Source: an uncultured virus (IMG/VR IMGVR_UViG_3300034095_001075) (lineage: Duplodnaviria > Heunggongvirae > Uroviricota > Caudoviricetes). From it: a DNA stretch of 61,849 bases. Within the stretch, counting starts at the first letter, position 1. The number at the start of each line of letters is the position of its first letter. The notes beneath the pieces are model-generated. The model searched no databases and was not told the origin of the DNA. It saw only the letters and a program-made list of their open reading frames with translations. A program made the translations under genes and the position numbers. The DNA is taken from IMG/VR virus record IMGVR_UViG_3300034095_001075; one strand, 5' to 3'. Positions 1 to 61,849 of this stretch are shown here, in pieces.

Positions 1-1
1 A

Positions 2-3000
2 CCAACTGGCATTTCTTTCAACTTTAATGTTGGAATTGCTCCAGCAGCATGGAATGAAGCCAATGTAGGAACTACTACTGAATGGCCTGCAACATGGAAA
101 TTGAAATTTTCAGAAAATACAGCAGGATTTTATAATTATACCCCCACATCTACAGACGGGGATGATGCTGTACTTACTATGCAGAAAATTGGATTGTTTG
201 ATAATATAGTAAATATAAATGGAAAAATTTATATTTCAGATATTCAAAATTCTAGTCAATTCGTAAGTGGACCAAATGGAACTGCTAACAGAGTCCCATT
301 AACAAATTCTTCTGGACTTCTTGACAAGAAATTTACAAATAGAATAAGGACTACAGATTTTGCAGTAACTCCGAGTGTTGGTGATCTTGTAGTAGTTTCT
401 ACACTAACGGATGGTGATGCTCAGTATTCTCTTGGTATTGCAAATGGAATAGGAAGTTCCGATGTAATTGGAATAGTAGAATCTATTAGTGCAGCCGAAG
501 TTACTTTAGTTCTTTCTGGTGAATTTGCATTTGTTGGTGAGGCTTCTCTGAATGCTGGTTCTAAGTATTATCTTTCGCAAACACTTCCTGGCAAATTTGT
601 GGAGGAAGGAACTTACTCTAGCGGAATTATACGACCAGTATTTGTTGCTCTTACCTCAAGCACCGGAATTATTCTTGCATCGTCTTCTTCTGTTACTACT
701 GGTATTGGCTCTGTTACTGTAAATTATGGAGAAGGATCAGAAGAGACAATAAACATAGATTCTATAAACTATCCTTTAAGATTTGTAGCTGGAACAAACA
801 TAGGATTCAATGTAACCACTGATAATGAAATTGAAATTCGTACCACTGGTTTGGCTGGTACTCAAGATTTGTTCAAGACGATAAATGTTCCTTCTGGTGG
901 TCCTGTTGTTGCAGACAGTCCAACAGATATTTTGAATCTGACAAGTTCCACATTAACGATAACGGGAAATGCCGGATCTGATACAATAAATTTCGAAATA
1001 CCAAACACATTCAAGACATTCAAATTTAGTAGACCTGGGGCTTCGGATCTTACATACAATCCAGAGTCCACTACAGATACTCTACAATTCATTGCTGGAA
1101 ATGGTATATCGTTTACACAAAATACAGACGATTCTGTAATCATAACTTCTTCTTTGACTGGTTCTGTTAATGTTGAGGATATAGTATTTCCATCTGGATC
1201 TGGTTATGATATATTTGTTTCTGATTCTATGGGTGTTGGCACGGCAGTCAGTCTGAAAGGTTCGGAGTATCCTGGAGGGTTTGATGCAAACTGGAGCACC
1301 GTTAGTAATATTCTTGTACCGGGAAGATTTCTTTCTATCGATACAATAACTTACAATGAAGGAAATTACACTTTTAGCGGTACTGGTGAAGAATATTCCC
1401 TCGATTCATCATATCATGATGCTTTGCTTACTGAATATTATTTGCCGGATGAATTGGCTGGATTTATGGTAGGAAGAATCACTCCTTCTGCACTGGGGAC
1501 TTCGACTAATCCAAGTAACAGTATAACAAGATTAACAAGAAGAGATGTTAGATTTTTCTTAGGAATGAATCCAGAAGGATATATTGATTCTGTTAATAAT
1601 GTATTCAAGTCTTTTAGTATTAATGGTGGGGGTACCGTAACAGCAGGATCTAAATCTGGTAATATAGCATTTCAAGCAGGAACTGGTATTGAATTATCAA
1701 ATCCAACTCCAGGTACCAGCGATAAACTACTCATAACAAACACAGGTGTTGCACAAAATGCATTTTCACATGTTGTATTAAAGAACAGCAGTGGAACTAC
1801 AATAGATTCATATGATGCAAACACATCTGCTGATACATTCACACTAAAAGCCGGTACATTTGTTAAACTAGACACAGACACGAATAACGACACAGTAACA
1901 TTCGATTTAGATGTACCATATGACTATGCGTTGCTCGGAAACTCAGGAACAACAGATGGTATGGGAATTATAGATCTTTCCGGATCTCCTTCTTGCCTTG
2001 TAGGAAGAATTGGTGGAAGTCAAATTCAAGCAATAGACAACGATGAGTTGCGTTGGATTTCTACAACTGCTCCAGTTATGCCATTACCTTATTTTGGATT
2101 AGTTCGTGCAACAGACAATAGCACAGGTTCCTCCACGATAAAAAACCTAAATGCAAACACTGCTGGAAAATTGAATATTGCGCCTGGTAATAATGTTGTA
2201 TTCACTGTAGACGATACAACAAACACCATATCTATAAGTTCTTCTGGTACTGGAGAAACAAGCTCAAATCCATTCATCGGAAAGATAATTGAAAACAACA
2301 ATGAGTGGCCAGTTTCGTTCGCTGGTACTGATTTAAAGTTCTTTAATGGAACTGGTATTGCTTTTAGTTCAAGTGCCAACGCTCGAACCACCCAGATCAG
2401 TGCAAGTCTTGCGGTAATTGAACCACGGGCTTTGCTTGCTAATGCTTCTACTACAACAGCCGTTCCGACTGGACTATTGTTAGCTTCTTCTTCTGTATTG
2501 TTCTCTGACAGTACGCTAGGTTTGATCAGTCTTTTAGTATCTCCCCGTACAGTACAAGATATAACCAACTTAAATAGTTTAAAATCTAAATTAAATATTG
2601 GTCACTATAATGGTATATCAGTTCGAGACTCTTCTAATACTGAGACAACTCGTTTAGCAACTACTAATATTTCTGGTGATAAACTAATAATCAAACCCGG
2701 CACAAATATGATTATTACTGCTGCTGGTGGTAGTGACACGATAATTAGTGCCACTGGTCAAATAATATTTGTTAACGGATCAGGATCCTCCTGGACCGGC
2801 ACAATAACAGGTATGACTACTAATGTTGGATTGAATGTTGGTTCCAAAATTAAAGTAACAGCTGATGTTGGTTCTATAGGAGATGGTAATCCTGCGTATG
2901 GAAGTGTGACTGTAACAAGTATTCTTTCAAGCGGCACACAAATAACCTTTAGTAGTACTGTACAGCCAGTTGCTGGCACTGTGACAAATATACGCACAGA

Positions 3001-11427: not shown

Positions 11428-13263
11428 ATGGCATTTCAAATAAGCCCAGGCGTAAATATAACCGAAAAAGATGTGACCCTTCTAGTCCCAGCAATCGCAA
11501 CCACCCCAGCGGGTATGGTTGGATTGTTTCAATGGGGTCCGGGTAACGAACCAATAACAATTACAAGTGAAAAGGAACTGTCTCAGATTTATGGTCAACC
11601 CCTTAAATCCACAGGCGGTGTCGCAGATGCCACCAAATACAATAGATGGTGGTGGAGTGCTGCCAATTTTCTTTCTTATGGAAACAATATAAAAGTCATT
11701 AGATTCATCAATTCCGGTGGTGCTGCAAGAACTGCATGTTCCGGAACTGTTGCAATAACAGGAAGTCAACTTTCTGGCGCAACTAGTAAAGCGGCTTATA
11801 ACGCAACCGTGACTGATGGTTTCTGGGCAGCAAAATATCCAGGCACACTTGGTAACGGTTTAAAGGTAGTAGTACTCGATCACTATGGTGCTGAGACTGT
11901 TGGTGCAAATACAAATGGTGACGCAGAGCAATATGTAGATTACATTAGAAATTTTGATGGATTACCAGGCACATCTCCTTGGGCAACAAACCTTACTGGA
12001 GCTGCACTGAAGGATGAAATTCATGTTCTGGTAATAGATGCTGCTGGCAATTTCAGTGGAACTGCTGGTACAGTATTAGAGAAGTTCTCATACTTGTCCA
12101 AAGCATCAAATGCTGTAAATCAAAATGGAACATCGAATTATTACAGAGATGTAATAAATAATCAATCGCAATATGTTTGGGCATTGAATCATTTGGATGA
12201 TGGTGCAGTTACAATAAATAATCAAAACACAGCAACAGCTACGGTTTCACTTGATTCAGGAAGTACTATATGGGGAACTACCGTGGTTCCTTCGACATCT
12301 TCTGCATTTAAAGTGATGCAAGAGGGTGGCGGAGAAAATATAATAGTAAGTAATCTATATGGCGGAGCATTAGATACAACACCTTCAGACGATGATATCG
12401 CAGAAGCATTTAACACATACATGGGTGATCCAGAAATCATCGATGTTGCTCTGTTTATAACAGGACCTCTTGGCAAGACTGCTGCTTATCGCGTAATTGA
12501 AATTGCTGAAGCCAGAAAAGATGTGGTGGCATTCGTGTCTCCAATTCCAGCTGGTGGATTCAACCAAACCCCTTCTGCATATGTTGCAGACATTCTTACA
12601 TTCAGAGCAAACGGAGATTCTACTTCATATGGTGTAGCAGATACTGGATACAAACTTCAGTACGACAACTACAACGATGAATATGTTTATGTTCCGTTGA
12701 ATGCTGATATTGCTGGATTGTGCGTTCGTACAGATGAAAATAACGATCCTTGGTTTTCACCAGCTGGACTGAATCGTGGTAGTATCAACCGTGTTGTTAA
12801 ACTGCCATTCAACCCAAATCAAAGCAACCGCGATGATTTATATAAGGTTGGTATGAATCCAGTGGTTTCTTTCCCAGGAATTGGACCAGTGTTGTTTGGA
12901 GATAAAACTCTTCTCAGCAGACCGTCTGCATTCGATAGAATCAATGTACGCAGATTGTTCATCATTCTTGAAAAATCTATTGCAACTGCAGCTAAATTCC
13001 AATTGTTCGAATTCAATGATGCATTTACACGAGCACAATTTATTAACTTTGTTACTCCTTTCTTAAGAAATGTTCAAGGAAGAAGAGGTATTACAGATTT
13101 CAGAGTTGTATGCGATGAAACCAACAATACATCACAAGTAATTGATTCTAATAACTTTGTTGCTGACATTTATATTAAGCCGAACAAATCAATCAACTTC
13201 ATTCAACTCAACTTTATCGCAACGCCATCTGGTTTAAGTTTCGAAGAAGTGGTTGGAGCATAA
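11428..13263 (+). CDS. gp18: Tail sheath protein gp18
   Basis: MAFQISPGVNITEKD, FQWGP, AKYPGTLGN, PWFSPAGLNRG, FGDKT..SAFDRINVRRLF, FEFNDAFTR, KPNKSINFIQLNFIA. Confidence 0.97.
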   Translation: MAFQISPGVNITEKDVTLLVPAIATTPAGMVGLFQWGPGNEPITITSEKELSQIYGQPLKSTGGVADATKYNRWWWSAANFLSYGNNIKVIRFINSGGAARTACSGTVAITGSQLSGATSKAAYNATVTDGFWAAKYPGTLGNGLKVVVLDHYGAETVGANTNGDAEQYVDYIRNFDGLPGTSPWATNLTGAALKDEIHVLVIDAAGNFSGTAGTVLEKFSYLSKASNAVNQNGTSNYYRDVINNQSQYVWALNHLDDGAVTINNQNTATATVSLDSGSTIWGTTVVPSTSSAFKVMQEGGGENIIVSNLYGGALDTTPSDDDIAEAFNTYMGDPEIIDVALFITGPLGKTAAYRVIEIAEARKDVVAFVSPIPAGGFNQTPSAYVADILTFRANGDSTSYGVADTGYKLQYDNYNDEYVYVPLNADIAGLCVRTDENNDPWFSPAGLNRGSINRVVKLPFNPNQSNRDDLYKVGMNPVVSFPGIGPVLFGDKTLLSRPSAFDRINVRRLFIILEKSIATAAKFQLFEFNDAFTRAQFINFVTPFLRNVQGRRGITDFRVVCDETNNTSQVIDSNNFVADIYIKPNKSINFIQLNFIATPSGLSFEEVVGA

Positions 13264-13282
13264 TTAAAGGAGCATCAATCTA

Positions 13283-13837
13283 ATGGACATTACAAAATTT
13301 ACAAGTAAATTTGATGGTGGAGCAAGATCGAATCTATTTCAGATTCAAATATCTAATACACCACAAGGAGTTCCACTTCTTGGCCAAGACGATCAAATAG
13401 TTCACATCAAAGCAATTCAATTACCAGAAACTACAGTTGGTGAAATTCCTGTAAATCACATGGGAAGAATATATAAATTCCCAGGAGATAGATTATATAA
13501 TGATGTATCTCTGACTATTCTGAGTGATGGAACTAATATGAGAATTCGGCATTTCTTTGAGGCATGGAATCATGCTTGGAACAACCACATTAGCAATACA
13601 GGTCTATTACCAAATGATAACCAGCTGAATGCAGTTGTTAAATTGTCACAATTGGATCGTCTGCACAATCCAATTCGTACATATGTCTTGAATAAGGCTT
13701 GGTGCAGTGATGTTTCTGCTGTTGATCTTTCTCACGACAATAATGATGCTTTAGTAGAATTTACAGTAGCTATAAAGTACCATTATTTCACAGTAGACGG
13801 TGGTACTTCTGCCGGACCTGGTCAAGGATTGATTTAA
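13283..13837 (+). CDS. gp19: Tail tube protein gp19
   Basis: GGARSNLF, LPETTVGEIPV..MGR..KFPGDR, EFTV..Y.YF; follows gp18. Confidence 0.93.
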   Translation: MDITKFTSKFDGGARSNLFQIQISNTPQGVPLLGQDDQIVHIKAIQLPETTVGEIPVNHMGRIYKFPGDRLYNDVSLTILSDGTNMRIRHFFEAWNHAWNNHISNTGLLPNDNQLNAVVKLSQLDRLHNPIRTYVLNKAWCSDVSAVDLSHDNNDALVEFTVAIKYHYFTVDGGTSAGPGQGLI

Positions 13838-13867
13838 CTGACTATATACTTGTGAAGGAGCTTTATT

Positions 13868-15514
13868 ATGGCATTTGATTTATTCGGTTTTACATTTGGT
13901 AAAACCAAGTCTGACGAAATATCACCCTCTTTAGTACCGCCGGTTTTGGACGATGGCGCTGCCTTTGTTCAAGCCGGTGGTTTTCAAGGATGGTATGTTG
14001 ATCTTGATGGAACCATCAAGTCGGATGTTGACTTGGTTAGAAAATATCGTGAGATGAGTCTTCACGCAGAAGTAGAAATGGCTATCGATGATGTTATCAA
14101 TGAAATGATAACAGAAGATGCAACTGGTGAAATTGTTAAATTAAATATCGATAGAGTCGATAATTCAATTATACCAGAAGAAGTAAAGAAAGTAATGTAT
14201 GAAGAATTCCAAAAGATTATCTTCTTACTTGATTTTAATCACAAATGCTATGATATAAGCAGACGATGGTATATTGATGGTCGGCTCTATTATCACATGA
14301 TACTGGAAGATGATCCTAGACAGGGTATCAAAGAAATTCGTCAGATCGATCCTACTAGAATCAAAAAAGTAAGAGAAGTAAAACAAAAAGATAAAATTAA
14401 TGGTATTGATGTTATTGCTGGAATGGAAGAGTATTTCATATACACAGTATCAGATAGACCAAATTCATATGACACCGCGCAAGGTGTGAAGCTGTCTCCG
14501 GATTCTATTAATTATTGTCATTCTGGACTGTTTGATTATGGAACAAAACGAGTTGTAAGTTTCCTTCATAAAGCAATCAAACCACTGAATCAATTAAGAA
14601 TGGTAGAAGATGCTACTGTGATTTATCGTTGGTCTAGAGCACCAGAGCGTAGAGTATTCTACATCGATGTTGGTTCTTTACCAAAGAATAAAGCAGAATC
14701 ATATCTTCGTGATATCATGTTGCGGTATCGCAATAAGATCACATATGATGCCAACACTGGCGAAGTAAGAGATGATAGAAAACACATGAGCATGTTGGAA
14801 GATTATTGGCTTCCTCGTCGCGAAGGTGGTAAAGGTACAGAAATTACAACTCTGCCTGGTGGACAGAATCTTGGCGAAATGGAAGATGTCAAATACTTCC
14901 AAAAGAAACTTTTCCGTTGCTTGAATGTTCCATCATCTCGTATGGAATCCGAGAACGGATTTAACATGGGTCGTGCAGCAGATATCAGCAGAGATGAACT
15001 GAAGTTTGCTAAATTTATCAGCAGACTTCGTTTAAGATTCTCAGATCTGTTCATGAATTTTATGAGAGTGCAACTTGTTGCTAAGGGAATAATCGATTTA
15101 GATGAGTGGGCTAAAATAAGCCAACACATCAAGTTTGAATTCTCAACCGATTCTATGTTCTTGGAATCAAAGCAATCAGAAGTTCTTAAAGATCGTATGG
15201 CAGTTCTAAGAGAAGTGTCGGATTACTCTGGCAAATTCTTCTCCGATAGATGGATTCGTAAAAACATTCTTCGTCAAAGCGATGAAGATATTGATAATAT
15301 CGATACAGAAATTGAACAAGAGAAGATGATACAAGAGCAGAAGCAAATGGAAGAGCAGATGCGTGCAGAACAAATGGCAGCACAGACTACTGGTGTGCCA
15401 GCTGGTGGCGTGGGTTCTTCCCCACCAGCTGGGGCACCCCAAGGAGGTGGTGACGCAGCAACTGCAGCAACACAACAATCAGGAGTAGATTACGATGCCA
15501 GCAGCCTTTTATGA
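13868..15514 (+). CDS. gp20: Portal protein gp20
   Basis: RWYIDGRLYYH, LHKAIKPLNQLRMVEDA.VIYR.SRAPERRVFYIDVG.LPK.KAE, EDYWLPRREGGKGTEITTLPGGQNLGE; Q/A/G-rich C-terminal tail. Confidence 0.97.
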   Translation: MAFDLFGFTFGKTKSDEISPSLVPPVLDDGAAFVQAGGFQGWYVDLDGTIKSDVDLVRKYREMSLHAEVEMAIDDVINEMITEDATGEIVKLNIDRVDNSIIPEEVKKVMYEEFQKIIFLLDFNHKCYDISRRWYIDGRLYYHMILEDDPRQGIKEIRQIDPTRIKKVREVKQKDKINGIDVIAGMEEYFIYTVSDRPNSYDTAQGVKLSPDSINYCHSGLFDYGTKRVVSFLHKAIKPLNQLRMVEDATVIYRWSRAPERRVFYIDVGSLPKNKAESYLRDIMLRYRNKITYDANTGEVRDDRKHMSMLEDYWLPRREGGKGTEITTLPGGQNLGEMEDVKYFQKKLFRCLNVPSSRMESENGFNMGRAADISRDELKFAKFISRLRLRFSDLFMNFMRVQLVAKGIIDLDEWAKISQHIKFEFSTDSMFLESKQSEVLKDRMAVLREVSDYSGKFFSDRWIRKNILRQSDEDIDNIDTEIEQEKMIQEQKQMEEQMRAEQMAAQTTGVPAGGVGSSPPAGAPQGGGDAATAATQQSGVDYDASSLL

Positions 15515-16112
15515 GCTTAATATAGAACAATCTTCAGATTTCTTATCTGCTCTACGGATATTAAAACCGGAAGATGGTACTCTTTTTAAATTTCTTCCAA
15601 ATGTTGGAGAACGATTTTGGAAAAATGACAACTCTGCTGTTAATTTTGATATTCCAAATGAAATCAAACTACTGTATCCAAATCAAGCAAGTGCTTTTGG
15701 ATATTTGCAAAACACCGCTCTATTAACTTTTCTTACGGTTCGTATGAAAATAAAAGATAGTACTGGATCAGCAACAAACCTTAAAATAGAAGGACAGACT
15801 ATTTGTAAAAGACGAGGAGATGCGAATGCCGCGGCAGGAGATTATGTCCTAATAGACGAAAGTCCGACAATTGGTACTTCGAATCGTGCAATATTCAAAT
15901 TTGTAAATAGAACTTCTGTTGTAGCAGATAATAATATAACATTACACATACCAAATTCCGTTACTAATAATTTTAAAGGAAAATATCTATACGATATTGA
16001 ACTTGAATATAGACTAGGAGGAGTTGGGGCAACTACTGAGTCCAATACAACACCATTTGTTGTGAGATTGTTACAAGGAAGAGTTACATTCAATCCAAAT
16101 ATAACAACATAA
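15495..16112 (+). CDS. Hypothetical virion adaptor-like protein (paralogous ends with 39147-39530)
   Basis: Begins MPAAFYELNIEQSSDF and ends YLYDIEL...RLLQGRVTFNPNIT, an Ig-like phage adaptor pattern; overlaps portal stop by 20 nt. Confidence 0.5.
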   Translation: MPAAFYELNIEQSSDFLSALRILKPEDGTLFKFLPNVGERFWKNDNSAVNFDIPNEIKLLYPNQASAFGYLQNTALLTFLTVRMKIKDSTGSATNLKIEGQTICKRRGDANAAAGDYVLIDESPTIGTSNRAIFKFVNRTSVVADNNITLHIPNSVTNNFKGKYLYDIELEYRLGGVGATTESNTTPFVVRLLQGRVTFNPNITT

Positions 16113-17501
16113 ATGTCAATCAATGCAGCATCATTTAAGATTCTTGTCGGAAGTTTTACAGATAAAAATGTATTAGCTTCTGGTAATGCATTGACAATAT
16201 ATCAAATTGGTTCTATTGACTATAAATTAACTACAATACTTGAGAATGTAGATTCCATTAACGAATTCTATGAAGAAGGGGGTGATAGTTCAAATCCCTG
16301 TACTTCTAGTTTATTCGGCTGTACAGAATCTTTAGTAATTAATGTAGATCCTGAATGTCCAAATGGAACAGGAGGAACTGGTCCTCAAGGTCCTCAAGGT
16401 CCTGCAGGAGCTAGTGGAACTAGTGGAAGAACTACTGTAATTGCGATAGCACCGCCAATTGCTTTAAATTGTGGCGAAAATCCAACAGCCACAATTGGTC
16501 CACCAGTCCAGGATCCAAATGGAGCAACACAAACACAAACACTAACATTAGGAATACCAGTATCTTGTGCTGGTGGTGGTGGTGAAAATGTTTCAGTTAA
16601 GGTGACACATGGAGGTGGCACTCAATTTAATCCCGGATCTGTATCTGCTATTGATTTTAAATCTGGTGCAAATATGTCTTTTGGAGGAGGATTTGTTGGC
16701 AATACTTCGAACAGTATAAACATAAAAGCAACTTGTACTGCTGTTGGTTATTTTAAAATTCTTAGTATGTTTCTAGAAGACAACAGATGGATATATCGCG
16801 GTCTTCCACAAAAATTTATGAGGAATGATGTAGATCCGAATACTGGAGATGGTAATGCTGATGTAACTTTCGTCTCGGATGTAGATTTTATAGAAATTGT
16901 TAATCTTGCCGAAGATTCTTCTTCTACATCAATACCATTAGGTGCTGAAATTGGGGGAGATTATCAGACATTTCCATCCGGACTTATATATCCTACTCAA
17001 ACGCCACCAACTTCAGTATCACTAACAGTACAGCCAATAGTAGTTTTATACAAAGATGCAGTTGGTGGTGTGTTTATGAATACCAAAAATCCATTGAACG
17101 GAAATTTATTAAAAGCAACAATAGATTCCGTTGAGATATTCTCTCCAACTAATGGACCAAAATGGAGATATAAAATTAAATTCTGTAATGTTGATTATTC
17201 TATAGCAGGAACAACAGGTCCTACAACAACTGCTACAACCTTTAAAGGCAAATCTACAGCTTGGGCATATAATCAACTTGAAGTGGGCAATACTATATCG
17301 TCTGCATATGGATATACACTATCAACATCAAATTCATATACCGCAGCTACTGCCACCACTCCAGAAGGATTTAAATTAAATTCTTCTACTGGATTCCTAT
17401 TCAGTCATGTTCCAATTGGAAGTATTGTAGATATTGAAGTTGATAGTAAAGGAAACTTTTACTTCAAATCCCCAAATGCAGTAGTAGGAATTTGTACATG
17501 A
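16113..17501 (+). CDS. Hypothetical virion protein with short collagen stretch and duplicated C-terminal domain
   Basis: GPQGPQGPAGASG; two related blocks RWIY...NLAE...V.L...G.FM.TKNPLNG and KWRY...NQLE...VDI...G.FYFKSPNAVVG. Confidence 0.5.
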   Translation: MSINAASFKILVGSFTDKNVLASGNALTIYQIGSIDYKLTTILENVDSINEFYEEGGDSSNPCTSSLFGCTESLVINVDPECPNGTGGTGPQGPQGPAGASGTSGRTTVIAIAPPIALNCGENPTATIGPPVQDPNGATQTQTLTLGIPVSCAGGGGENVSVKVTHGGGTQFNPGSVSAIDFKSGANMSFGGGFVGNTSNSINIKATCTAVGYFKILSMFLEDNRWIYRGLPQKFMRNDVDPNTGDGNADVTFVSDVDFIEIVNLAEDSSSTSIPLGAEIGGDYQTFPSGLIYPTQTPPTSVSLTVQPIVVLYKDAVGGVFMNTKNPLNGNLLKATIDSVEIFSPTNGPKWRYKIKFCNVDYSIAGTTGPTTTATTFKGKSTAWAYNQLEVGNTISSAYGYTLSTSNSYTAATATTPEGFKLNSSTGFLFSHVPIGSIVDIEVDSKGNFYFKSPNAVVGICT

Positions 17502-19720: not shown

Positions 19721-19737
19721 TTAGCAATATTAGATAT

Positions 19738-19745
19738 TATAAATA
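19738..19745 (+). promoter_or_regulatory. Late promoter TATAAATA (prohead core genes)
   Basis: Exact consensus, intergenic. Confidence 0.8.
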
Positions 19746-19761
19746 GTAAAAAGAGGTATAT

Positions 19762-20016
19762 ATGTCTACAGAAAAAATAATTGATTCTTTATTTGATAAC
19801 AACTTAGAAGCATTCCGAAACCAAGTTCACACATCATTGTATGTAAAAGCTGGGGAATATATGAATTCTGCCAAACAAGTTGTTGCTGGTGGTATGTTCA
19901 ATCCTCCACAAGAAGTTCAAGAAGAACTCAAAGGCAATCAAAAGAAGCTAGATCTTGCTAAACCAAAAGGAAAACTTACCGCAGCCGATTTTGCTGCCTT
20001 AAGAAAGAAAGGGTAA
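19762..20016 (+). CDS. Small prohead core protein (gp67-like position)
   Basis: 84 aa directly before gp21; IIDSL..NN..AF...V...LY.KA...M...KQ.VA..MF pattern, plus C-terminal LKGNQKKLD...GKLTAADFAALRKK motif. Confidence 0.6.
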   Translation: MSTEKIIDSLFDNNLEAFRNQVHTSLYVKAGEYMNSAKQVVAGGMFNPPQEVQEELKGNQKKLDLAKPKGKLTAADFAALRKKG

Positions 20017-20021
20017 TATAC

Positions 20022-20666
20022 ATGAAACTGATTACCGAGACTAGACAACAAGATATTCAATATATCGTAGAAAACAACGAAGGTAAGAAATCTTACTTCA
20101 TTCGTGGTATTTTCGCAGAATCTAATGTCGTGAATAGAAATAACAGAATGTATGATGGCCCAATCCTTGAGGGAGCAGTCAGAACATATACCGAAAACTA
20201 TGTAAAAAATAGTCGTGCATTAGGTGAATTAGGACATCCAGAAGGACCAACAGTAAATCTGGAAAGAGTCTGTCACATGATCAAAGATCTTCATATGGAA
20301 GGTGCTCAAGTGATGGGTAATGCAAAGATCATGGATACCCCATATGGTAGAATCGTACAAAACTTAATAGACGAGGGAGCCAAACTTGGTGTATCTACTC
20401 GCGGTATGGGTTCTTTGGCTGAACGCAATGGTGTCAATATGGTTCAATCCGACTTCATGCTAGCCGCTGTCGATGTAGTTGCAGATCCGTCTGCGCCAAA
20501 TGCATTCGTGAATGGTATCATGGAAGGTAAAGAATGGGTGTGGGATAATGGCATATTTAAAACTTCCCTCATCGAAGACTACAAGAAACAAATAAATAAA
20601 GCTGGATCTAGAAACCTCGAAGAAACAAAACTTAAAGTTTTCCGAGATTTCTTATCTAAAATGTGA
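20022..20666 (+). CDS. gp21: Prohead protease gp21
   Basis: MKLITE, NRNNRMY, RALGELGHPEGPTVNLERV, LGVSTRGMGSL, DVVADPSAPNAFVNGIMEGKEW. Confidence 0.97.
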   Translation: MKLITETRQQDIQYIVENNEGKKSYFIRGIFAESNVVNRNNRMYDGPILEGAVRTYTENYVKNSRALGELGHPEGPTVNLERVCHMIKDLHMEGAQVMGNAKIMDTPYGRIVQNLIDEGAKLGVSTRGMGSLAERNGVNMVQSDFMLAAVDVVADPSAPNAFVNGIMEGKEWVWDNGIFKTSLIEDYKKQINKAGSRNLEETKLKVFRDFLSKM

Positions 20667-20670
20667 AATA

Positions 20671-20678
20671 TATAAATA
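20671..20678 (+). promoter_or_regulatory. Late promoter TATAAATA (gp22)
   Basis: Exact consensus, intergenic. Confidence 0.8.
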
Positions 20679-20707
20679 ACAGAGCGACAAATCAAGGAGA
20701 TTAACAT

Positions 20708-21904: not shown

Positions 21905-21921
21905 TTCAAAAATCAGGAAAT

Positions 21922-21929
21922 TATAAATA
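21922..21929 (+). promoter_or_regulatory. Late promoter TATAAATA (gp23)
   Basis: Exact consensus upstream of the major capsid gene; SD aaggag follows. Confidence 0.85.
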
Positions 21930-21965
21930 AAGTCAGACAAATAAAGGTTTAAAGGAGAAAACAAG

Positions 21966-47779: not shown

Positions 47780-48586
47780 ATGAAATTTTATATGTCATAT
47801 TGGTCAAATGGCTATTATGGTGAATTGGATGAATATATGTTGGACATACATCGGTTGAGTGTCCATTTAGTTAATAAACATTATGGTGAGTGTCATTTAA
47901 TAACAGATAGCAATTCAAAGAAATATTTTTCGGAATTGCCTTTTGCTTCAATTTCTACCCACTTGGATACTGTCCCGGTGCAAAAAAACAATTGGGCATT
48001 AGGTAAATTATATGCTTATAATTTTTTAAGCAAAAATAATATTCCTTTTTGTCATATAGATTATGATGTGTTTTTATGGAAAAGTTTACCAGAAACATTA
48101 TTAAAAAGTGAAGTTTTTTGTCAACATAAAGAAGAAAAAGTATACGATTTATATAGCTTTTATATGTTAAAAAAATATAATATCAATACTCATTTAATAG
48201 GTAGAATACCAGATAGAAACGAAAAGACAATTGCATTTAATGTTGGTATTTTTGGTGGAAATAACTTAGAATTTATTGAAAAATATTCTTCTAGTGCTAT
48301 TGATTTTGCTATAGACAAACACAATCAAGAATGCTATAATGAAATTTCAAAGGTGCAAAAGCATCCAATACCTTGTATTACTGAACAGTATTATCTGTAT
48401 GTTTGTTCTCAAAAATTTAATCAAAATGTCCAGTTTTTATTAAATGGAAAAATGCAAGATTATGAGAATGAAGCATCTGAATTGGGATATACACATTTGA
48501 TAGGATACAAATCTCATCCCAAAACAAAAGAAGCAGTTTATTTGAAATTATATGAACACGGATTAAAGGAGCTAAAATATTCATGA
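47780..48586 (+). CDS. Glycosyltransferase-like protein (DUF6734-like), paralog 1
   Basis: LITDS, WALGKL.AY, PFCHIDYDVF (DxD), FNVGIFGGN, EQYYL, GYTHL.G. Confidence 0.6.
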   Translation: MKFYMSYWSNGYYGELDEYMLDIHRLSVHLVNKHYGECHLITDSNSKKYFSELPFASISTHLDTVPVQKNNWALGKLYAYNFLSKNNIPFCHIDYDVFLWKSLPETLLKSEVFCQHKEEKVYDLYSFYMLKKYNINTHLIGRIPDRNEKTIAFNVGIFGGNNLEFIEKYSSSAIDFAIDKHNQECYNEISKVQKHPIPCITEQYYLYVCSQKFNQNVQFLLNGKMQDYENEASELGYTHLIGYKSHPKTKEAVYLKLYEHGLKELKYS

Positions 48587-49410
48587 AATTTTATATGTCA
48601 TATTGGTCTGGTGGATACCAACAAATACCACAATCATACATCATTGACTACCATAGACTATCTGCACATTATTTAAAAAAACACTATGGAGAAGTTCATT
48701 TAATAACAGATAGTGTTGGAAAGGATTCTTTAGAAGATGTTGGATATACAACAATAAGCACAGAATTAGATTCTTTGCCAGCAAATTTAAATTGGGCTTT
48801 AGGTAAACTATACTCATATCGAAAATTAGCTCAAATCGGTGATCCTTTTTTGCATGTTGATTATGATGTTTTTGTTGCAAAACCATTTCCTGAAACTAAA
48901 TTAATGTCTACAGTTTTAGTGCAAAGTGTGGAAAAAATACTTCCACCAGATAGATGGTATGATTTAGATGCATTTTATAATTTATGTCCTAATATTGGTT
49001 ATTGCAATAGAGATGATACAAATGATCATTCATACAATACTGGCATTTTTGGTGGAAATGATTTAGATTTTATTTACAAATATGCAAATTCTGCATACGA
49101 ATTGTCAGTAGATCCTGCGAATCAAATTGGTTATCAAAATATGAACAATAATGCAATTGGTCTATGTTTTTATCTTCCAACAATATTTTTAGAACAATAT
49201 TATTTGTATCAGTGTTCAAAACATTTTAATGTTTCGATAACGACATTGTTGAATGGCGGCGACTACGACAAACGATGGTTCGAAAGTAGTAGACGAGAAT
49301 TAGAATATTTTCATGTAACAGATATTGATGGAGGTATACCAAAAAACAATCAAAAACTACTTGAAATGATCCAAAGAAAATTAGTTTATGAGGGTGTAAT
49401 TGGTGCTTAA
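48583..49410 (+). CDS. Glycosyltransferase-like protein (DUF6734-like), paralog 2
   Basis: Same motifs: LITDS, WALGKL.SY, PFLHVDYDVF, YNTGIFGGN, EQYYL, YFH. Confidence 0.6.
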   Translation: MKFYMSYWSGGYQQIPQSYIIDYHRLSAHYLKKHYGEVHLITDSVGKDSLEDVGYTTISTELDSLPANLNWALGKLYSYRKLAQIGDPFLHVDYDVFVAKPFPETKLMSTVLVQSVEKILPPDRWYDLDAFYNLCPNIGYCNRDDTNDHSYNTGIFGGNDLDFIYKYANSAYELSVDPANQIGYQNMNNNAIGLCFYLPTIFLEQYYLYQCSKHFNVSITTLLNGGDYDKRWFESSRRELEYFHVTDIDGGIPKNNQKLLEMIQRKLVYEGVIGA

Positions 49411-57685: not shown

Positions 57686-59671
57686 ATGATCCCTACCTTC
57701 TCTTCATACAGTGCTCCAGAACCGTCTAGGAAGCTAGCCATGCTATCCCTAAACGAAGCAAGCAATGGAGAGCATTTACGATTAACTATCGATCTGGGTG
57801 ATGTTAAAGCAGGATCTGTATATAAGCCAATTGCTGAGAATCTATATAAAATCTTATTAGATGAAGGCTTTCCTGAATATAAAATAAAATTGAAAGGAAT
57901 TGGCGAATTTTGTTTCGTAGATGAATCCAATACCACTCTGTTACAGATAATTGGTGGTCTTGGAAAAGAAAAACAAATTGATAAGTTATTTGAATTTGTA
58001 AATATAAATACTTCTTTAGATTCTGAACATAATGTCATTGTAGTTCCACCCGTAGTGGAACAAATCGTTTCTGTTCCGATAAAGGGAGATACTGGCACCA
58101 CTGGTGATGTCGGTTCTAAGGGAGACAGAGGTGATCGTGGGTTTATAGGTGCGCGTGGAGAAACAGGCGATACCGGACCACAAGGACCGCAAGGACCCCA
58201 AGGCATACCCGGAGAAAGGGGAACCGATGGATTACAAGGACAGACAGGCCCTAAAGGCGATCAAGGAGATCGTGGCGATAAGGGAGATGTTGGCAATATT
58301 GGGCCGCAAGGAGAAAAAGGTGAAAAGGGAGATCCTGGCATCCAAGGACTTGTGGGATCGATTGGTCCGACCGGTAATGTGGGTTCTAGCGGTGCTAAAG
58401 GAGAACGAGGAGAAAAGGGAGATACAGGATCAGATGGTACGATTGGTCCGAAGGGAGAGACAGGTCCTCAAGGAATACCGGGAACTCAAGGAAAGAATGG
58501 CAAGCAAGGAAAAGCAGGCGTAAAAGGTGATGTTGGTGAGCGGGGTGAAAAAGGTGACAAGGGCGATAAAGGTGATCCGGGTGAAGTTGGTGTTGCTACC
58601 GCAAAATATCCTCTAAAACTAAACGAAAAAATATTAAGTATTGAACAACAATTCTTACAGGATATTGTAACTAACGCAACATCTAAACATAGCGCACAGG
58701 GTGGTGGTGGTGGAAATTTAATAGTAAAGCATGAAGGAAGAAGACTTACTTCTGCTGCTAAAAGTATTAACTTTACCGGAAGTGCAATTTCCTCCGTTTC
58801 TACAGACGGTAAAAACATAAACATAAATGTTGTTGGTGGAGAAGGTGGATCACCAACATCAAATAGATTTTCATACACAGACGAACCACCAGAAAATCCA
58901 ATAAATGGTGACAGATGGTTTGAAAGTGATACTGGTAAATATTTTGTATACATTGATGACGAAGATTCTTCGCAGTGGGTACAAATTGTTACTAGCACAG
59001 GTTCCTCAACACCATCACCGATAACTCTACCTTTTGTAGTATCAGCAGAAATAAACACAGATAATGAACTAATATTAATTTACAACAACGAAAGTACTTT
59101 AAATGTAGGAGTCGTAGAAGGAACACCCGGTCCAATTGGTCTAACTGGTGCTAAAGGCGATACTGGTTCTACTGGTGCAACAGGTGCTACTGGTGTAACT
59201 GGAACTTCTGTTTCAAATGCAGATGTTAATACTAATGGCGATTTAATTCTTACACTTACAGACGCAACTGTAATTAATGTTGGAAATGTTGTTGGTGCAG
59301 ATGGTGCAACAGGACCAACTGAGGATTTGATTTCAGTATTCATAGATTCTACGCCTGATGATATATCAATAGGCAAAAAAGCACATCGTCTCATTCCTTA
59401 TGATTGTCAGGCGTTAGAGTGGTATATTGTTGCGGGTCAAACGGGTTCGATCCAGTTCGATGTGAAGAAATCTACATTTGCAAACTACCCATCAACCACT
59501 TCTATAGTTGGATCAGACTACCCAAGCCTTAGCGGTCAATTCAAGAATTCAAATACAGGCATCACCGCATGGTCGGGAATGAGTGCAGGTGACATGATTG
59601 ATTTCGTAATAAATAGTAATACAGATATACAAAGCGTAGGATTGTTCATAAAGATCAGGAGAATCACATGA
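57686..59671 (+). CDS. Collagen-like fibre protein
   Basis: 57 uninterrupted Gly-X-Y triplets (58085-58597), a second short collagen run, P.NP..GDRWF..DTGK...Y motif and a C-terminal beta domain; ACTAAATA box at 57671-57678. Confidence 0.85.
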   Translation: MIPTFSSYSAPEPSRKLAMLSLNEASNGEHLRLTIDLGDVKAGSVYKPIAENLYKILLDEGFPEYKIKLKGIGEFCFVDESNTTLLQIIGGLGKEKQIDKLFEFVNINTSLDSEHNVIVVPPVVEQIVSVPIKGDTGTTGDVGSKGDRGDRGFIGARGETGDTGPQGPQGPQGIPGERGTDGLQGQTGPKGDQGDRGDKGDVGNIGPQGEKGEKGDPGIQGLVGSIGPTGNVGSSGAKGERGEKGDTGSDGTIGPKGETGPQGIPGTQGKNGKQGKAGVKGDVGERGEKGDKGDKGDPGEVGVATAKYPLKLNEKILSIEQQFLQDIVTNATSKHSAQGGGGGNLIVKHEGRRLTSAAKSINFTGSAISSVSTDGKNININVVGGEGGSPTSNRFSYTDEPPENPINGDRWFESDTGKYFVYIDDEDSSQWVQIVTSTGSSTPSPITLPFVVSAEINTDNELILIYNNESTLNVGVVEGTPGPIGLTGAKGDTGSTGATGATGVTGTSVSNADVNTNGDLILTLTDATVINVGNVVGADGATGPTEDLISVFIDSTPDDISIGKKAHRLIPYDCQALEWYIVAGQTGSIQFDVKKSTFANYPSTTSIVGSDYPSLSGQFKNSNTGITAWSGMSAGDMIDFVINSNTDIQSVGLFIKIRRIT

Positions 59672-61849
59672 AAGCAGCAGTAGATCATTTTTTTACGGGG
59701 GACACTATAGGATTTACAGGAGGAATTCCTGCCGTTGGTTCAACTGCGGGTGGTTATGATTCCACCAAGACCATGCTTTCCTCGCTCATTCGCCAAGCCA
59801 CGGGAGCAAACACAGAAGACAAATATATTTCTTCAAAGCCATCAGCCATTGTGAACATTCCTGAAGTGTTTTCTTCGGGTACGCAGTTTATGCCATATGT
59901 ATACAAATGGTCGAACAATATTTACTGGATTTTTGCAGCATCTAATGCTACTGCCGCAGCAACAAGAACTATTTCTCTTACAGAATTTAATTCAAGTACA
60001 TTTGCCTTGACCTACAAGGGATTCATAACGCTATCAGGAACCACGGTATCAGGAAGCAAAACCATTCGTTCCCTACGAGCAATGGTATATAAACACACAA
60101 CGGGAACAGTCTCCACAAGTGGGTCTTCTACAACAATTTCTGGTTCTGGAACAGGATTTACAGACGAACGCATTTCTGTTGGTGCAAGGATTGGATTTGG
60201 AACAACCGATCCCACGGCAGTCACCACATGGTATGAAATCACAGGAATAACAAACAACACAACCCTAACGATCAATGCTCCCGTTACTCTATCTGCTGGA
60301 ACTTCGTATGTTATTGAAGAAATACAAATTGCAGTTGCCTGTACGCAATCGGGTACTGGTACTATCGTTGTGAATAGCGGCGTTCATCTCATCAAGGGAC
60401 TGAACTACAGCACATTCTCTCAAGGCGGAACCACAATTACAGAAGCAACGACTGTTGATAACATTCGTGCTTCATACCTGTTGACCGATGCAAGAATAAA
60501 CTCTGCACCAATCCAAACCTTCACAGTCACCATTGCTTCGCCAGGAGTCTTTACCTGCAATAGTAACGGACTGAGGAACGGTGATGTTGTTGTTTTGACA
60601 AGTACAGGTGCTTTGCCAACTGGACTTACGACATCACCGACAACTGCTGCAACGCAGTATTTTGTGGTGAATGCGGCAACAAACACCTTCAACCTGTCAA
60701 CCACTCTCAACGGAACTGCGATCAATACCTCTGGTTCTCAGAGCGGAACACATACCATACACTCTCATGCAAAGAATGTTGCTGCTACCTTGGCTTTGGA
60801 TGATGAAGTAAGCAAGACAGACCACAGCATCTACTTGGTGTCAACATATGCAACCTCTTGTTCAATAACCGAGTACAACCTCCGAGCGGCATTGACTGTT
60901 GGTGCGATGGGTTCATTCATCACCGCAGGAACAAGCCCAAGTGCCTATGTGCTATCCACAACGACACAGGCAGTCACGGGAACACCATCACAGGTAAATT
61001 CTGGAAGAATATTTACAGTAAATCATGGTTCCGCATCTGGAATAAAAAGTCTTTACTTTACAACAACCACAAGAATTTACCGTTGTCCAGATGCCAATCT
61101 TACGAGTGGATCTATAAACTGGTTGGAAGACGCAATGATTGAAGTCCCACCAGGCGGTAGTGTCACATATACCGCTACGACAACCATGTCACAGGTTGAC
61201 TATTCGGCAATAATCGACCGATTGTTCGTGACAACTACAAGTGGACGATTTGGAACCTATGTGACCCCGTATGTCACGGATGGATCGCAGTTTGAAAGGT
61301 TCATCGGTGCCAACTTGAACAGATTGAAGTTGACCACAACCGCTTCGGGCGCAAGTGATGGACTGTTTCCAACAGCCACACTTACAATTTGGACTGAAGA
61401 TGGATGGATGTTCGCCATACCCGCATCCGTGACATCGGGATCGAATTGGCTGTATGTATTCCCGTTCGGTGCAGATGCGTACTACGAGTCAACGACCCGT
61501 CAGGGGGTCATCACTCCTAAACTTGCAACCACGAACGCAAGCAAACTTTATCATGCCTATGTTGACCATATGGAATATGCAGGAGAATACGGACTCGGAT
61601 TTCCTGTTGAGTCCTACAAGATGTGGTATCGCACAAGTGGCATAGACGATAATAGTGGTGCATGGACAGAAATTGCTATAGGAGCGGATTTGGAAGCCGC
61701 TGCTGTATCTGATTATATTCAATTCAAGATTGCGTTTGACATTATGGGCGAACTCTGCGTTCCCACTCGCATATACTCTATTGCTTGTTTGTATGAGGAC
61801 TCCAATCAGGATTCACATTATCAGCCGTCTCTGTCAAAATCTTCTACCG
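59668..61849 (+). CDS. Large virion/fibre-associated protein, 3'-truncated (missing from ORF track)
   Basis: aggaga SD and ATGA overlap; manual translation MKAAVDHFFTGD... has no stop to the window end (>720 codons); contains the TIASPGVFT...GL.NGD.V.LT.TGALPTGL...YFVV...NTF.LSTT..G.AINTSGSQSGTHT phage tail module. Confidence 0.8.
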   Translation, partial: MKAAVDHFFTGDTIGFTGGIPAVGSTAGGYDSTKTMLSSLIRQATGANTEDKYISSKPSAIVNIPEVFSSGTQFMPYVYKWSNNIYWIFAASNATAAATRTISLTEFNSSTFALTYKGFITLSGTTVSGSKTIRSLRAMVYKHTTGTVSTSGSSTTISGSGTGFTDERISVGARIGFGTTDPTAVTTWYEITGITNNTTLTINAPVTLSAGTSYVIEEIQIAVACTQSGTGTIVVNSGVHLIKGLNYSTFSQGGTTITEATTVDNIRASYLLTDARINSAPIQTFTVTIASPGVFTCNSNGLRNGDVVVLTSTGALPTGLTTSPTTAATQYFVVNAATNTFNLSTTLNGTAINTSGSQSGTHTIHSHAKNVAATLALDDEVSKTDHSIYLVSTYATSCSITEYNLRAALTVGAMGSFITAGTSPSAYVLSTTTQAVTGTPSQVNSGRIFTVNHGSASGIKSLYFTTTTRIYRCPDANLTSGSINWLEDAMIEVPPGGSVTYTATTTMSQVDYSAIIDRLFVTTTSGRFGTYVTPYVTDGSQFERFIGANLNRLKLTTTASGASDGLFPTATLTIWTEDGWMFAIPASVTSGSNWLYVFPFGADAYYESTTRQGVITPKLATTNASKLYHAYVDHMEYAGEYGLGFPVESYKMWYRTSGIDDNSGAWTEIAIGADLEAAAVSDYIQFKIAFDIMGELCVPTRIYSIACLYEDSNQDSHYQPSLSKSST

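What the first reader, a model, noticed from the sequence alone, without database searches (positions are those of the whole stretch)
1..61849. The palindrome ACGT appears to be completely absent from 62 kb
I looked at the base before each CGT I could find across the window: it was always T, C or G, never A (Asp-Val is consistently written gat-gt, not gac-gt, even in the C-rich gp23 gene). Other 4-bp palindromes (GATC, TCGA, TGCA, GTAC, CATG, CCGG, AGCT, CTAG, GCGC, CGCG, GGCC) are all present. Base composition alone would predict on the order of a hundred or more sites. The avoidance also holds in compositionally foreign segments (47.8-49.4 kb and 59.7-61.8 kb), so gene donors probably faced the same pressure. 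Inference: long-term selection by an ACGT-specific host defence (restriction enzymes such as MaeII/HpyCH4IV/TaiI recognise ACGT) or by a phage-encoded ACGT-targeting nuclease used against host DNA. It could act as a host-lineage fingerprint.
Basis: partly seen in the sequence, partly recalled or inferred. Interest (0 to 1): 0.78.

Follow-up and report, generated by a model that had tools for sequence, protein, structure and literature searches.

The report
ACGT-free lake phage: restriction-site avoidance
An uncultured T4-like phage from lake water has removed every copy of the four-letter word ACGT from its genes by silent codon changes, the known footprint of escaping a bacterial DNA-cutting enzyme, and its relatives have purged different words.

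Summary
ACGT occurs 0 times in 61,849 bases. Base and word composition models predict 85-210 copies; synonymous-codon shuffles predict 116 +/- 8. The purge is silent and present in all three reading frames, and it is not general CpG loss. An IMG/VR contig identical to the window's first 9,151 bases extends the stretch to 102,443 bases with a single ACGT, in an accessory sugar epimerase gene.

Relatives are a mosaic. On a capsid-protein tree, one clade of 55 rows has 33 with no ACGT, and the trait changes state at least 5 times. The window's 13 nearest other rows keep ACGT and purge AGCT instead. Other relatives lack CCGG, GGCC, CATG, AATT or 6-base palindromes.

The best explanation (about 0.78) is avoidance of a host type II enzyme of the MaeII/Hpy99XI kind. 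I tested six phage genes as possible causes and all failed. The host and its enzyme were not found. The 'host fingerprint' idea holds only for a changeable set of restriction enzymes, not for a deep host lineage.

This is a new example of a known phenomenon. This scan has noted similar word purges in other phages.

The parts
1..61849 (.). ACGT-free stretch of a T4-like myovirus genome. All called genes lie on the + strand: connector, terminase, sheath, tube, portal gp20, prohead protease, scaffold, capsid gp23, UvsY, helicase, gp55, gp47/gp46, RNase H, clamp and loader, RegA, tail-fibre genes, dUTPase, DNA polymerase, UvsX, gp41, primase, ThyX.
   Evidence: ACGT counts. Gene assignments: PHROGs and Pfam.
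21966..23453 (+). Major capsid protein gp23 (49% G+C). It has 0 ACGT where 3-6 are expected, and all 6 NAY-GTN codon pairs are written NAT-GTN. It was used as the marker for the family tree.
32041..33735 (+). Conserved 564-aa protein whose C-terminal half is an N4/N6-type DNA methyltransferase (motif I DPSSGWGG, motif IV SPPY). It was tested as a possible ACGT-linked factor and rejected.
   Evidence: Pfam PF01555 1.1e-5 (below the curated cut-off), PHROG 498/67, PADLOC MTase_II 7e-11. Orthologues of 67-81% identity occur in contigs with and without ACGT, and no variable recognition segment is visible.
28460..29047 (+). 195-aa class I SAM-dependent methyltransferase-like protein (FDYGSGACG). 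It lacks DNA-methylase motif IV. It is found only in this phage population, plus a 32% match in contig G003. It is not linked to the purge.
12001..24000 (+). Structural block where AGCT is at about its expected level (47 observed against 46 by the trinucleotide model). In the rest of the window AGCT is at about 0.3-0.6 of expectation.
47780..49410 (+). It is too AT-rich for the missing ACGT to mean anything (1.9 expected).
59668..61849 (+). Open-ended gene, about 810 aa in relatives, that follows a collagen-like tail-fibre gene and is probably a distal fibre or receptor-binding protein. It has 0 ACGT where 5.7-8.1 are expected. Homologues of 61-99% identity lie in T4-like contigs of 32-51% G+C, and 12 of those 26 contigs have no ACGT.

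Best explanation
This is restriction-site avoidance. The phage is a virulent T4-like myovirus of lake water. It replicates in bacteria that carry an orthodox type II restriction-modification system recognising ACGT, an isoschizomer of MaeII or the Hpy99XI system, whose methylase makes A(m5C)GT.

Inferred steps: unmethylated phage DNA is cut at every ACGT on entry, so each site lowers the chance of a productive infection. Mutations that remove a site without changing the protein are therefore fixed, and mutations that create one are removed.

Shown here: the site is absent, it was removed through synonymous choices, the absence was maintained during divergence, and relatives have purged other palindromes.

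Not shown: the enzyme, the host, and sensitivity of the phage DNA to cutting.
For: (1) ACGT is 0 against 116 +/- 8 under synonymous-codon shuffles, and 0 against 85-210 under composition models.

(2) The purge is silent in all three frames. NAT-GTN 231, NAC-GTN 0. Thr ACG is used 0 times among 282 Thr codons before a T-starting codon, and 113 times elsewhere. Arg CGT is used 0 times among 209 Arg codons after an A-ending codon, and 121 times elsewhere, while Arg itself is not depleted there (209 of 672 Arg codons follow an A-ending codon, and 33% of all codons end in A).

(3) The absence extends beyond the window. The window merged with the identical contig G007 gives 102,443 bases with 1 ACGT (126-197 expected). 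G008 has 0 of 51 expected, G009 0 of 36, and L134, which runs past the window end, 0 of 12.

(4) The constraint was maintained during divergence. Against G009 (92% nucleotide identity), 87 of 87 shared NAY codons before GT are T in both genomes. In contrast, 14% of 355 NAY codons before other G-starting codons differ.

(5) The avoided words are all type II-style palindromes and differ between relatives. G002 (118 kb): ACGT 0/141, AGCT 39/252. G003 (78 kb): ACGT 0/145, AGCT 0/168, CATG 72/271, CCGG 17/102, AATT 199/404, and no ATCGAT, CTGCAG or GGTACC. G004 (95 kb): ACGT 106/159, AGCT 15/189, and no CTGCAG or GGATCC.

(6) The trait is patchy on the capsid tree. There are at least 5 state changes, and the window's 16-row clade has 13 rows with ACGT. 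This matches the patchy distribution of restriction systems among hosts.

(7) ACGT is a known type II target. MaeII cuts A^CGT and its methylase makes m5C (PMC10113651, passages read). ACGT is the m5C motif of M.Hpy99XI and one of the most under-represented motifs in H. pylori (PMC10423294, passages read).

(8) Rusinov et al. 2018 (PMC6286503, abstract and passages read) report that avoidance concerns orthodox type II sites, is more pronounced in non-temperate than in temperate phages, and reaches complete or almost complete elimination in about a tenth of viral genomes.

(9) Independent assemblies give the same result, which rules out an assembly artefact: L001, L002, L100-L102, L133, L134 and G007.
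Against: No host and no ACGT-specific endonuclease or methylase was identified. Two scans of 185,579 species genomes, with the capsid protein and with the epimerase, found no relative.

Only about 102 kb of the genome was seen. CheckV's figures for relatives (for example 118 kb = 65%) suggest roughly 170-180 kb in total, so a phage gene that explains the purge could lie in the unseen part.

One ACGT survives, at G007:1430 in the epimerase gene, so a single site is tolerated at least transiently.

Whether the phage DNA carries base modifications is unknown. A DUF1599 'nucleotide modification associated' domain sits next to the dUTPase gene.

The tree was built with FastTree on one protein, so the count of state changes is approximate.
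Confidence: 0.78

Rival explanations
1. The phage encodes its own ACGT-specific nuclease to shred host DNA, and a site-free genome is its self-protection in place of a methylase or modified bases.
For: T4-type phages degrade host DNA, and this clade shows no cytosine-replacing pathway in the parts seen. The window has a ThyX-type thymidylate synthase and a dUTPase but no recognised dCMP hydroxymethylase. The purge is complete, as self-protection would require. An earlier unchecked note of this scan proposed the same logic for an AATT-free cyanophage (e1-6078520).
Against: NCBIfam and PADLOC found no restriction endonuclease among 29 unassigned window proteins.

Every candidate fails the presence/absence test:
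- The TnsA-like (restriction-fold) nuclease has 85.5% homologues in contigs with ACGT at 18/13 and 5/5.
- DUF6433 occurs in ACGT-bearing contigs and is missing from ACGT-free ones.
- The SPPY methylase and the 385-aa protein next to it occur in both kinds of contig.
- The 385-aa protein, modelled at pLDDT 83.5, has no PDB fold match at E <= 0.001 and is mostly helical.

Relatives avoid up to five 4-mers plus several 6-mers at once, which would need a whole set of phage nucleases.
Confidence: 0.06
2. The purge is driven by methylation rather than cutting. ACGT in phage DNA is methylated to m5C by host or phage methylases. The methylated sites are then lost by deamination to ATGT/ACAT, or are attacked by methylation-dependent (type IV) enzymes in other hosts.
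For: Where sister contigs G004 and G006 have ACGT, the window has ATGT in 32 of 63 aligned cases and ACAT in 3. These are the deamination products described for H. pylori ACGT (PMC10423294). m5C methylase genes exist in relatives G002 and G004.
Against: A mutational bias cannot give 0 of 116, nor hold 87 of 87 sites fixed while control sites vary by 14%. The ATGT excess follows from coding constraint, because NAC-GTN can only be silenced as NAT-GTN. ATGT and ACAT are not in excess in the window (377/332 and 348/331). Orthologues of the G004-type m5C methylase occur in 21 contigs with ACGT and 8 without, plus 2 with a single site. Deamination may speed the purge, but it is not an alternative to selection.
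Confidence: 0.06
3. ACGT is reserved as a rare functional signal of the phage itself (packaging, replication or regulation) and is therefore excluded everywhere else.
For: A single ACGT remains in 102 kb.
Against: The one survivor is a Tyr-Val codon pair inside an accessory epimerase gene, not in an intergenic or repeated element. Its G002 orthologue reads TAT-ATC. G008, G009, G002 and G003 have no ACGT at all. Close relatives with the same core genes carry 84-106 sites.
Confidence: 0.02
4. The absence is a sequencing or assembly artefact, for example systematic miscalling at a modified motif.
For: None found.
Against: Miscalls would change amino acids: ACG-T to ATG-T gives Thr to Met, and A-CGT to A-TGT gives Arg to Cys. 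Instead Arg after A-ending codons is at its expected share and the missing codons are replaced by synonymous ones. The same absence is seen in independent IMG/VR contigs bearing other sample numbers.
Confidence: 0.01

Closest known systems
Restriction-site (short palindrome) avoidance in virulent dsDNA phages, surveyed by Rusinov et al. 2018, BMC Genomics (PMC6286503; abstract and passages read)
   Same: The avoided word is a palindromic orthodox type II site. The phage is non-temperate. Elimination is complete, which the paper reports for about a tenth of viral genomes.
   Different: That survey used cultured phage-host pairs with known enzymes. Here the host is unknown. The evidence is a clade-wide mosaic in uncultured lake phages, in which sister lineages avoid ACGT or AGCT.
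ACGT as the m5C motif of the Hpy99XI system in Helicobacter pylori (PMC10423294, passages read), and MaeII of Methanococcus aeolicus (PMC10113651, passages read)
   Same: The same 4-base word is a type II target with m5C protection. In H. pylori it is strongly under-represented, turns over quickly between lineages, and changes mainly through silent ATGT/ACAT variants in the second codon frame. That pattern matches the differences between the window and its sisters.
   Different: Those are cellular genomes that carry the methylase and keep tens to hundreds of sites per Mb. The phage has none and no recognised ACGT methylase. Nothing links those organisms to a lake phage.
Total absence of AGCT from clade-A pandoravirus genomes, with five large enterobacterial phages that all lack GCGC (Poirot et al., bioRxiv 10.1101/712018, passages read)
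   Same: A single 4-base palindrome drops to zero in a large viral genome while words of the same composition stay normal. The state differs between sister clades.
   Different: For the pandoraviruses, the restriction models those authors tested were rejected and the cause is open. Here the host is bacterial and the ordinary explanation is available.
Staphylococcus phage K and relatives lacking GATC (Sau3AI sites).
   Same: A large virulent myovirus with zero copies of a 4-base restriction site.
   Different: A different word and host, and there the enzyme is known.
Virus-encoded restriction-modification systems of chloroviruses (mentioned in the passages of 10.1101/712018)
   Same: This is the known precedent for the rival reading, a virus-borne site-specific nuclease used against host DNA.
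   Different: Chloroviruses protect themselves with a cognate methylase rather than by losing the sites. No such gene pair was found here.

Membership tests
Restriction-site avoidance (orthodox type II) | The avoided word is a short palindrome known as a type II recognition site. | tested here: met
   ACGT is its own reverse complement. MaeII cuts A^CGT and M.Hpy99XI methylates ACGT. HpyCH4IV and TaiI are recalled, not checked.
Restriction-site avoidance (orthodox type II) | The count lies far below composition-, Markov- and codon-aware expectations, and the word is the outlier among all words. | tested here: met
   0 against 85-210 and against 116 +/- 8.4. ACGT has the lowest observed/expected ratio of all 256 4-mers.
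Restriction-site avoidance (orthodox type II) | Sites are removed without cost to proteins (synonymous changes), in every reading frame. | tested here: met
   231 NAT-GTN against 0 NAC-GTN; ACG 0 of 282 Thr codons before T; CGT 0 of 209 Arg codons after A; Arg usage unchanged.
Restriction-site avoidance (orthodox type II) | The depletion is not explained by general dinucleotide (CpG) depletion. | tested here: met
   TCGA, CCGG, GCGC and CGCG are at 0.86-1.29 of expectation, and the neighbouring words ACGA and TCGT are in excess.
Restriction-site avoidance (orthodox type II) | The carrier is a dsDNA phage with a virulent lifestyle. | tested here: met
   The window has a T4-type structural and replication gene set, and no integrase or repressor was found among 58 ORFs. 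Lifestyle is inferred from the family.
Restriction-site avoidance (orthodox type II) | Relatives exposed to other hosts avoid other sites or none, so the trait is labile. | tested here: met
   At least 5 state changes on the capsid tree. Different relatives purge AGCT, CCGG, GGCC, CATG, AATT or 6-base palindromes.
Restriction-site avoidance (orthodox type II) | The host encodes the cognate endonuclease and methylase. | not testable with these tools
   The host is unknown. Genome-collection scans with the capsid and epimerase proteins found no relative. The 20 runs that hold the stretch are labelled lake water or freshwater metagenome.
Restriction-site avoidance (orthodox type II) | Phage DNA with the site is cut, and DNA without it escapes. 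| not testable with these tools
   This needs a digestion or plating experiment.
Virus-encoded nuclease with site-free self-protection | A nuclease gene is present in site-free genomes and absent or altered in site-bearing sisters. | tested here: not met
   No such gene was found in 102 kb. The TnsA-like nuclease, DUF6433, the SPPY methylase, the 385-aa neighbour and the m5C methylase all fail the correlation. The rest of the genome was not seen.

The most novel reading that the evidence does not exclude
The zero count is self-protection rather than defence. The unseen third of the genome would encode a 4-base cutter for ACGT that the phage uses to destroy the host chromosome. Sister lineages would carry cutters for AGCT, CCGG and other words. 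The 'avoidance barcode' of this clade would then record the phages' own weapons, and would explain how T4-like phages without modified cytosine tell their own DNA from the host's.
Probability: 0.05. Interest if true: 0.8.

Novelty: new member of a known kind. Interest (0 to 1): 0.35.

Why it matters
On its own this is a clean example of a known phenomenon. The useful part is comparative. In one abundant clade of uncultured lake T4-like phages, complete loss of ACGT is common (33 of 55 tree rows), and sister lineages differ in which palindromes they have purged.

This predicts that their unknown hosts often carry an ACGT-specific system with m5C protection. Single-molecule (SMRT) methylome surveys do not detect that modification directly (PMC10113651).

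Each phage's set of purged words can be compared with the restriction genes and methylomes of lake genome bins to propose hosts at strain level. It also offers a simple bench handle: viral DNA from such lakes cut with an ACGT enzyme should leave these genomes intact.

Tried and rejected
I made the counts on the window and on fetched loci instead.

2. SPPY methyltransferase 32041-33735 as a cause or protector. It is present at 75-81% identity in both ACGT-free and ACGT-bearing contigs and has no variable recognition block. It has no PDB sequence match.

3. DUF6433 gene 35760-36179. It looked specific at first (present in the window, G002 and G003; absent in G004 and G006). Among 34 loci it also occurs in ACGT-bearing L103 and L115-L119 and is absent from ACGT-free L106, L107 and L110-L112.

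4. The 385-aa protein next to the methylase. The AlphaFold model has pLDDT 83.5. Foldseek against PDB gives no match at E <= 0.001. It is not recognisable as a nuclease.

5. The 195-aa protein 28460-29047 is a generic class I SAM methyltransferase by the Atlas search, with no Pfam, NCBIfam or PADLOC hit.

6. The G004-type m5C methylase as an ACGT protector. Its orthologues occur in 21 contigs with ACGT, 8 without and 2 with a single site, of 31. The G002 and G004 enzymes share the catalytic core but differ in the recognition region. Their specificities are unknown.

7. The TnsA-like nuclease was rejected.

8. Host search. Genome-collection scans with the capsid protein and the epimerase found nothing. 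Atlas taxa for DUF6734 are viral. The nearest cultured phages are cyanophages at only 52% capsid identity. No photosynthesis genes were seen in the 97 ORFs of G002 and G004 that I scanned. The host remains unknown.

9. Literature. A search for ACGT + 'restriction site avoidance' + phage found 0 papers. Searches found no report of an ACGT-free phage. These cover open-access full texts only.

10. Earlier notes of this scan: none exist for this genome or for look-alike stretches. One unrelated note shares words with the capsid gene.

11. Read laying was not used. The comparison with G009 already tests maintenance of the constraint.

Full report
**What the window is**

PHROGs and Pfam assign most of the 58 ORFs, all on the + strand, to a T4-type myovirus. 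They include head-tail connector proteins, small and large terminase, tail sheath and tube, portal (gp20), prohead protease, scaffold, major capsid (gp23), UvsY, a helicase, the late sigma factor, gp47/gp46, RNase H, sliding clamp and clamp loader, RegA, tail-fibre proteins, dUTPase, DNA polymerase, UvsX, gp41 helicase, primase and ThyX.

The nearest cultured phages are Synechococcus and Prochlorococcus myoviruses, at only 52% capsid identity. Megablast finds only a 345-base portal match. The 20 public runs that hold a 10-kb stretch are labelled lake water or freshwater metagenome, from 2020-2025. Seven of them may be sources of the sequence. So this is an uncultured, recurrent lake phage with an unknown host.

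**The observation**

ACGT does not occur in the 61,849 bases on either strand. Expected numbers:
- 210 from base composition, 131 from dinucleotides and 85 from trinucleotides
- 130 +/- 10 in dinucleotide shuffles
- 120 from independent codons
- 116 +/- 8.4 (minimum 93) when synonymous codons are shuffled within each gene

ACGT has the lowest observed/expected ratio of all 256 4-mers. The other 15 palindromic 4-mers are all present.

CpG-containing words in general are not depleted: TCGA 157/183, CCGG 116/90, GCGC 45/48, CGCG 35/35.

AGCT (101 against 196) and GGCC (15 against 44) are also clearly depleted.

**How the word is avoided**

In frame 2, all 231 Asp/Asn/His/Tyr codons that precede a GTN valine codon end in T. 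Elsewhere 22-40% of such codons end in C.

In frame 1, threonine ACG is never used among the 282 Thr codons followed by a T-starting codon, but is used 113 times elsewhere.

In frame 3, arginine CGT never follows an A-ending codon (0 of 209 Arg codons there) but is used 121 times elsewhere. Arginine itself is as frequent after A-ending codons as expected, and CGA and AGA make up the difference.

In the C-rich gp23 gene, 6 of 6 NAY-GTN pairs use T, although 44 of 77 other NAY codons use C.

Proteins are therefore untouched. This excludes miscalling artefacts and points to selection on the DNA word itself.

**Beyond the window**

No assembly is held for the window. IMG/VR contig G007 (49,745 bases) is identical to window bases 1-9,151 and continues 40.6 kb upstream through gp32, baseplate genes and giant fibre genes.

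The merged 102,443 bases contain one ACGT, against 126-197 expected. That site is a Tyr-Val pair (TAC-GTT) in an NAD-dependent epimerase/dehydratase gene near the contig edge. The G002 orthologue reads TAT-ATC.

Contigs at 91-92% nucleotide identity have none: G008 (54.8 kb) 0 against 51 expected, G009 (30.2 kb) 0 against 36. L134, which extends about 5 kb past the window end, has 0 against 12.

Between the window and G009, 87 of 87 shared NAY codons before GT are T in both genomes. In contrast, 14% of 355 NAY codons before other G-starting codons differ, and 18% are C in both. The constraint has therefore been held throughout that divergence.

**Relatives**

I fetched 80 IMG/VR loci through the capsid protein and placed them with the window on a FastTree tree. 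In total 33 rows have no ACGT where at least 7 are expected, 1 row is nearly free, and 47 have the word. All ACGT-free rows fall in one well-supported clade of 55 rows. Rows outside it, at 52-59% capsid identity to the window, have ACGT near expectation, for example 79/81 and 86/82.

The state needs at least 5 changes on the tree, and 4-5 are forced by well-supported branches.

The window groups with L001 and L002 (98-100% identity, ACGT-free) inside a 16-row clade with 99% support. The other 13 rows of that clade carry ACGT at 0.4-0.9 of expectation but have almost no AGCT, for example 3/40.

Whole contigs show the same mosaic:

| Contig | Length | ACGT | AGCT | Other depleted words |
|---|---|---|---|---|
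| G002 | 118 kb | 0/141 | 39/252 | GGCC 9/46 |
| G003 | 78 kb | 0/145 | 0/168 | CATG 72/271, CCGG 17/102, AATT 199/404 |
| G004 | 95 kb | 106/159 | 15/189 | see 6-base words below |
| G006 | 63 kb | 84/105 | 18/111 | see 6-base words below |

Six-base palindromes are also missing. G003 lacks ATCGAT, CTGCAG and GGTACC. G004 and G006 lack CTGCAG and GGATCC. G002 lacks GGTACC.

Another set of T4-like contigs lacks CCGG. Contigs that share the window's last gene, a probable receptor-binding fibre protein, span 32-51% G+C. Twelve of those 26 have no ACGT, and several also lack AGCT, CCGG and GGCC.

**Interpretation**

All avoided words are palindromes of the kind cut by orthodox type II enzymes. 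They differ between close relatives, several are avoided at once, and the avoidance is silent and maintained.

This is the pattern of restriction-site avoidance described for cultured phages (PMC6286503, abstract and passages). ACGT-specific systems with m5C protection are known: MaeII (PMC10113651) and Hpy99XI (PMC10423294).

Where the sisters G004 and G006 have ACGT, the window has ATGT in 32 of 63 aligned cases. This is the same silent second-frame variant that dominates ACGT turnover in H. pylori. Deamination of host-methylated sites may speed the purge, but it cannot by itself give a count of zero.

I put the host-enzyme reading at about 0.78. The enzyme and the host remain inferred.

**Test of the phage-nuclease alternative**

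NCBIfam and PADLOC found no restriction endonuclease among 29 unassigned window proteins. I then looked for genes that track the ACGT-free state.
- The conserved SPPY methyltransferase (32041-33735) is present and nearly invariant in both kinds of genome.
- The DUF6433 gene looked promising in five genomes but failed in 34 further loci.
- The 385-aa neighbour of the methylase is mostly helical and has no PDB fold match.
- A TnsA-like nuclease has 85.5% homologues in ACGT-bearing contigs.
- Among 31 contigs with an orthologue of the G004-type m5C methylase, 21 have ACGT, 8 have none and 2 have a single site.
- The small methyltransferase at 28460-29047 is a generic class I enzyme.

The alternative keeps about 0.05-0.06, only because roughly a third of the genome is unseen.

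The 'foreign segment' argument has power only for 59,668-61,849 (5.7-8.1 sites expected). It has none for the AT-rich 47,780-49,410 (1.9 expected). For the first segment, homologues do circulate among phages that often lack ACGT, so the donor may well have been under the same pressure.

A 'host-lineage fingerprint' is not supported as stated. The trait flips between close relatives, so at best it reflects the current restriction repertoire of host strains. Phycisphaerales could not be tested.

**Verdict**

The feature is real and statistically overwhelming, and it belongs to a known kind. This scan has recorded similar purges of other words in other phages.

New here are the word itself, for which my five literature searches found no phage report (open-access texts only), and the clade-wide mosaic in lake T4-like phages.

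Noticed in passing
window 1-61849; block 12001-24000: AGCT is at about half its expected count overall (101 against 196 under codon shuffles), but unevenly. It is near expectation in the structural block 12-24 kb (47 against 46) and at 0.3-0.6 elsewhere. This may be relaxation after an AGCT-avoiding ancestry, faster regain in highly expressed genes that favour GCT, or recombination.
   Followed up: partly
window 32041-33735: A 564-aa protein, strongly conserved across the clade (67-81% identity). It has a roughly 320-aa N-terminal part of unknown function and a C-terminal N4/N6-type DNA methyltransferase domain (DPSSGWGG ... SPPY). Its target is unknown. Its start overlaps the GNAT acetyltransferase ORF 31745-32191, so the true start is uncertain.
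   Followed up: partly
window 47780-50217: Two adjacent DUF6734 genes (29% G+C, with mostly viral relatives) are followed by a dUTPase-family gene (with a weak sub-threshold match to dCTP deaminase) and a DUF1599 'nucleotide modification associated domain 1' gene, directly upstream of the DNA polymerase. This may be a nucleotide or base-modification module.
   Followed up: no
G007:1430 (L281:793-1701): The only ACGT in 102 kb of this phage lies in an accessory NAD-dependent sugar epimerase/dehydratase gene (TAC-GTT). It is either a recent mutation or a recently acquired gene not yet purged.
   Followed up: partly
G003 (L087-L090), whole 77,759-base contig: An extreme multi-word purge: ACGT 0/145, AGCT 0/168, CATG 72/271, CCGG 17/102, AATT 199/404, and no ATCGAT, CTGCAG or GGTACC. 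This relative has an unusually broad restriction-avoidance profile.
   Followed up: partly
L259-L277 (contigs with a TnsA-like nuclease homologue): A group of T4-like contigs has no CCGG (0 against 3-12 expected in 16 of 19 loci). Several also show GATC at less than half of expectation, for example 35/93 and 44/104.
   Followed up: no
G002: L081:15246-16139 and L081:16942-17934: The ACGT-free relative carries a GMP reductase/IMPDH-family gene and a short (330-aa) adenylosuccinate synthetase homologue. Short PurA homologues include the PurZ enzymes of 2-aminoadenine phages (recalled). I did not examine which kind this is.
   Followed up: no
window 59668-61848 and L134-L159: The open-ended last gene (about 810 aa in relatives, always just after a collagen-like fibre gene) is shared at 61-99% identity by T4-like contigs of 32-51% G+C and at different genome positions. 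It looks like a fibre or receptor-binding module exchanged between phages.
   Followed up: partly
window 33766-34923: A 385-aa lysine-rich protein conserved next to the methylase. The confident model (pLDDT 83.5) is a long helical part plus a small C-terminal beta domain. It has no PDB fold match at E <= 0.001 and no family assignment.
   Followed up: partly
L082:1899-2993 (G002) and L091:2526-3473 (G004): The m5C DNA methylases of two relatives share the catalytic core but have unrelated segments between motifs VIII and IX (the recognition region), which suggests different targets.
   Followed up: partly
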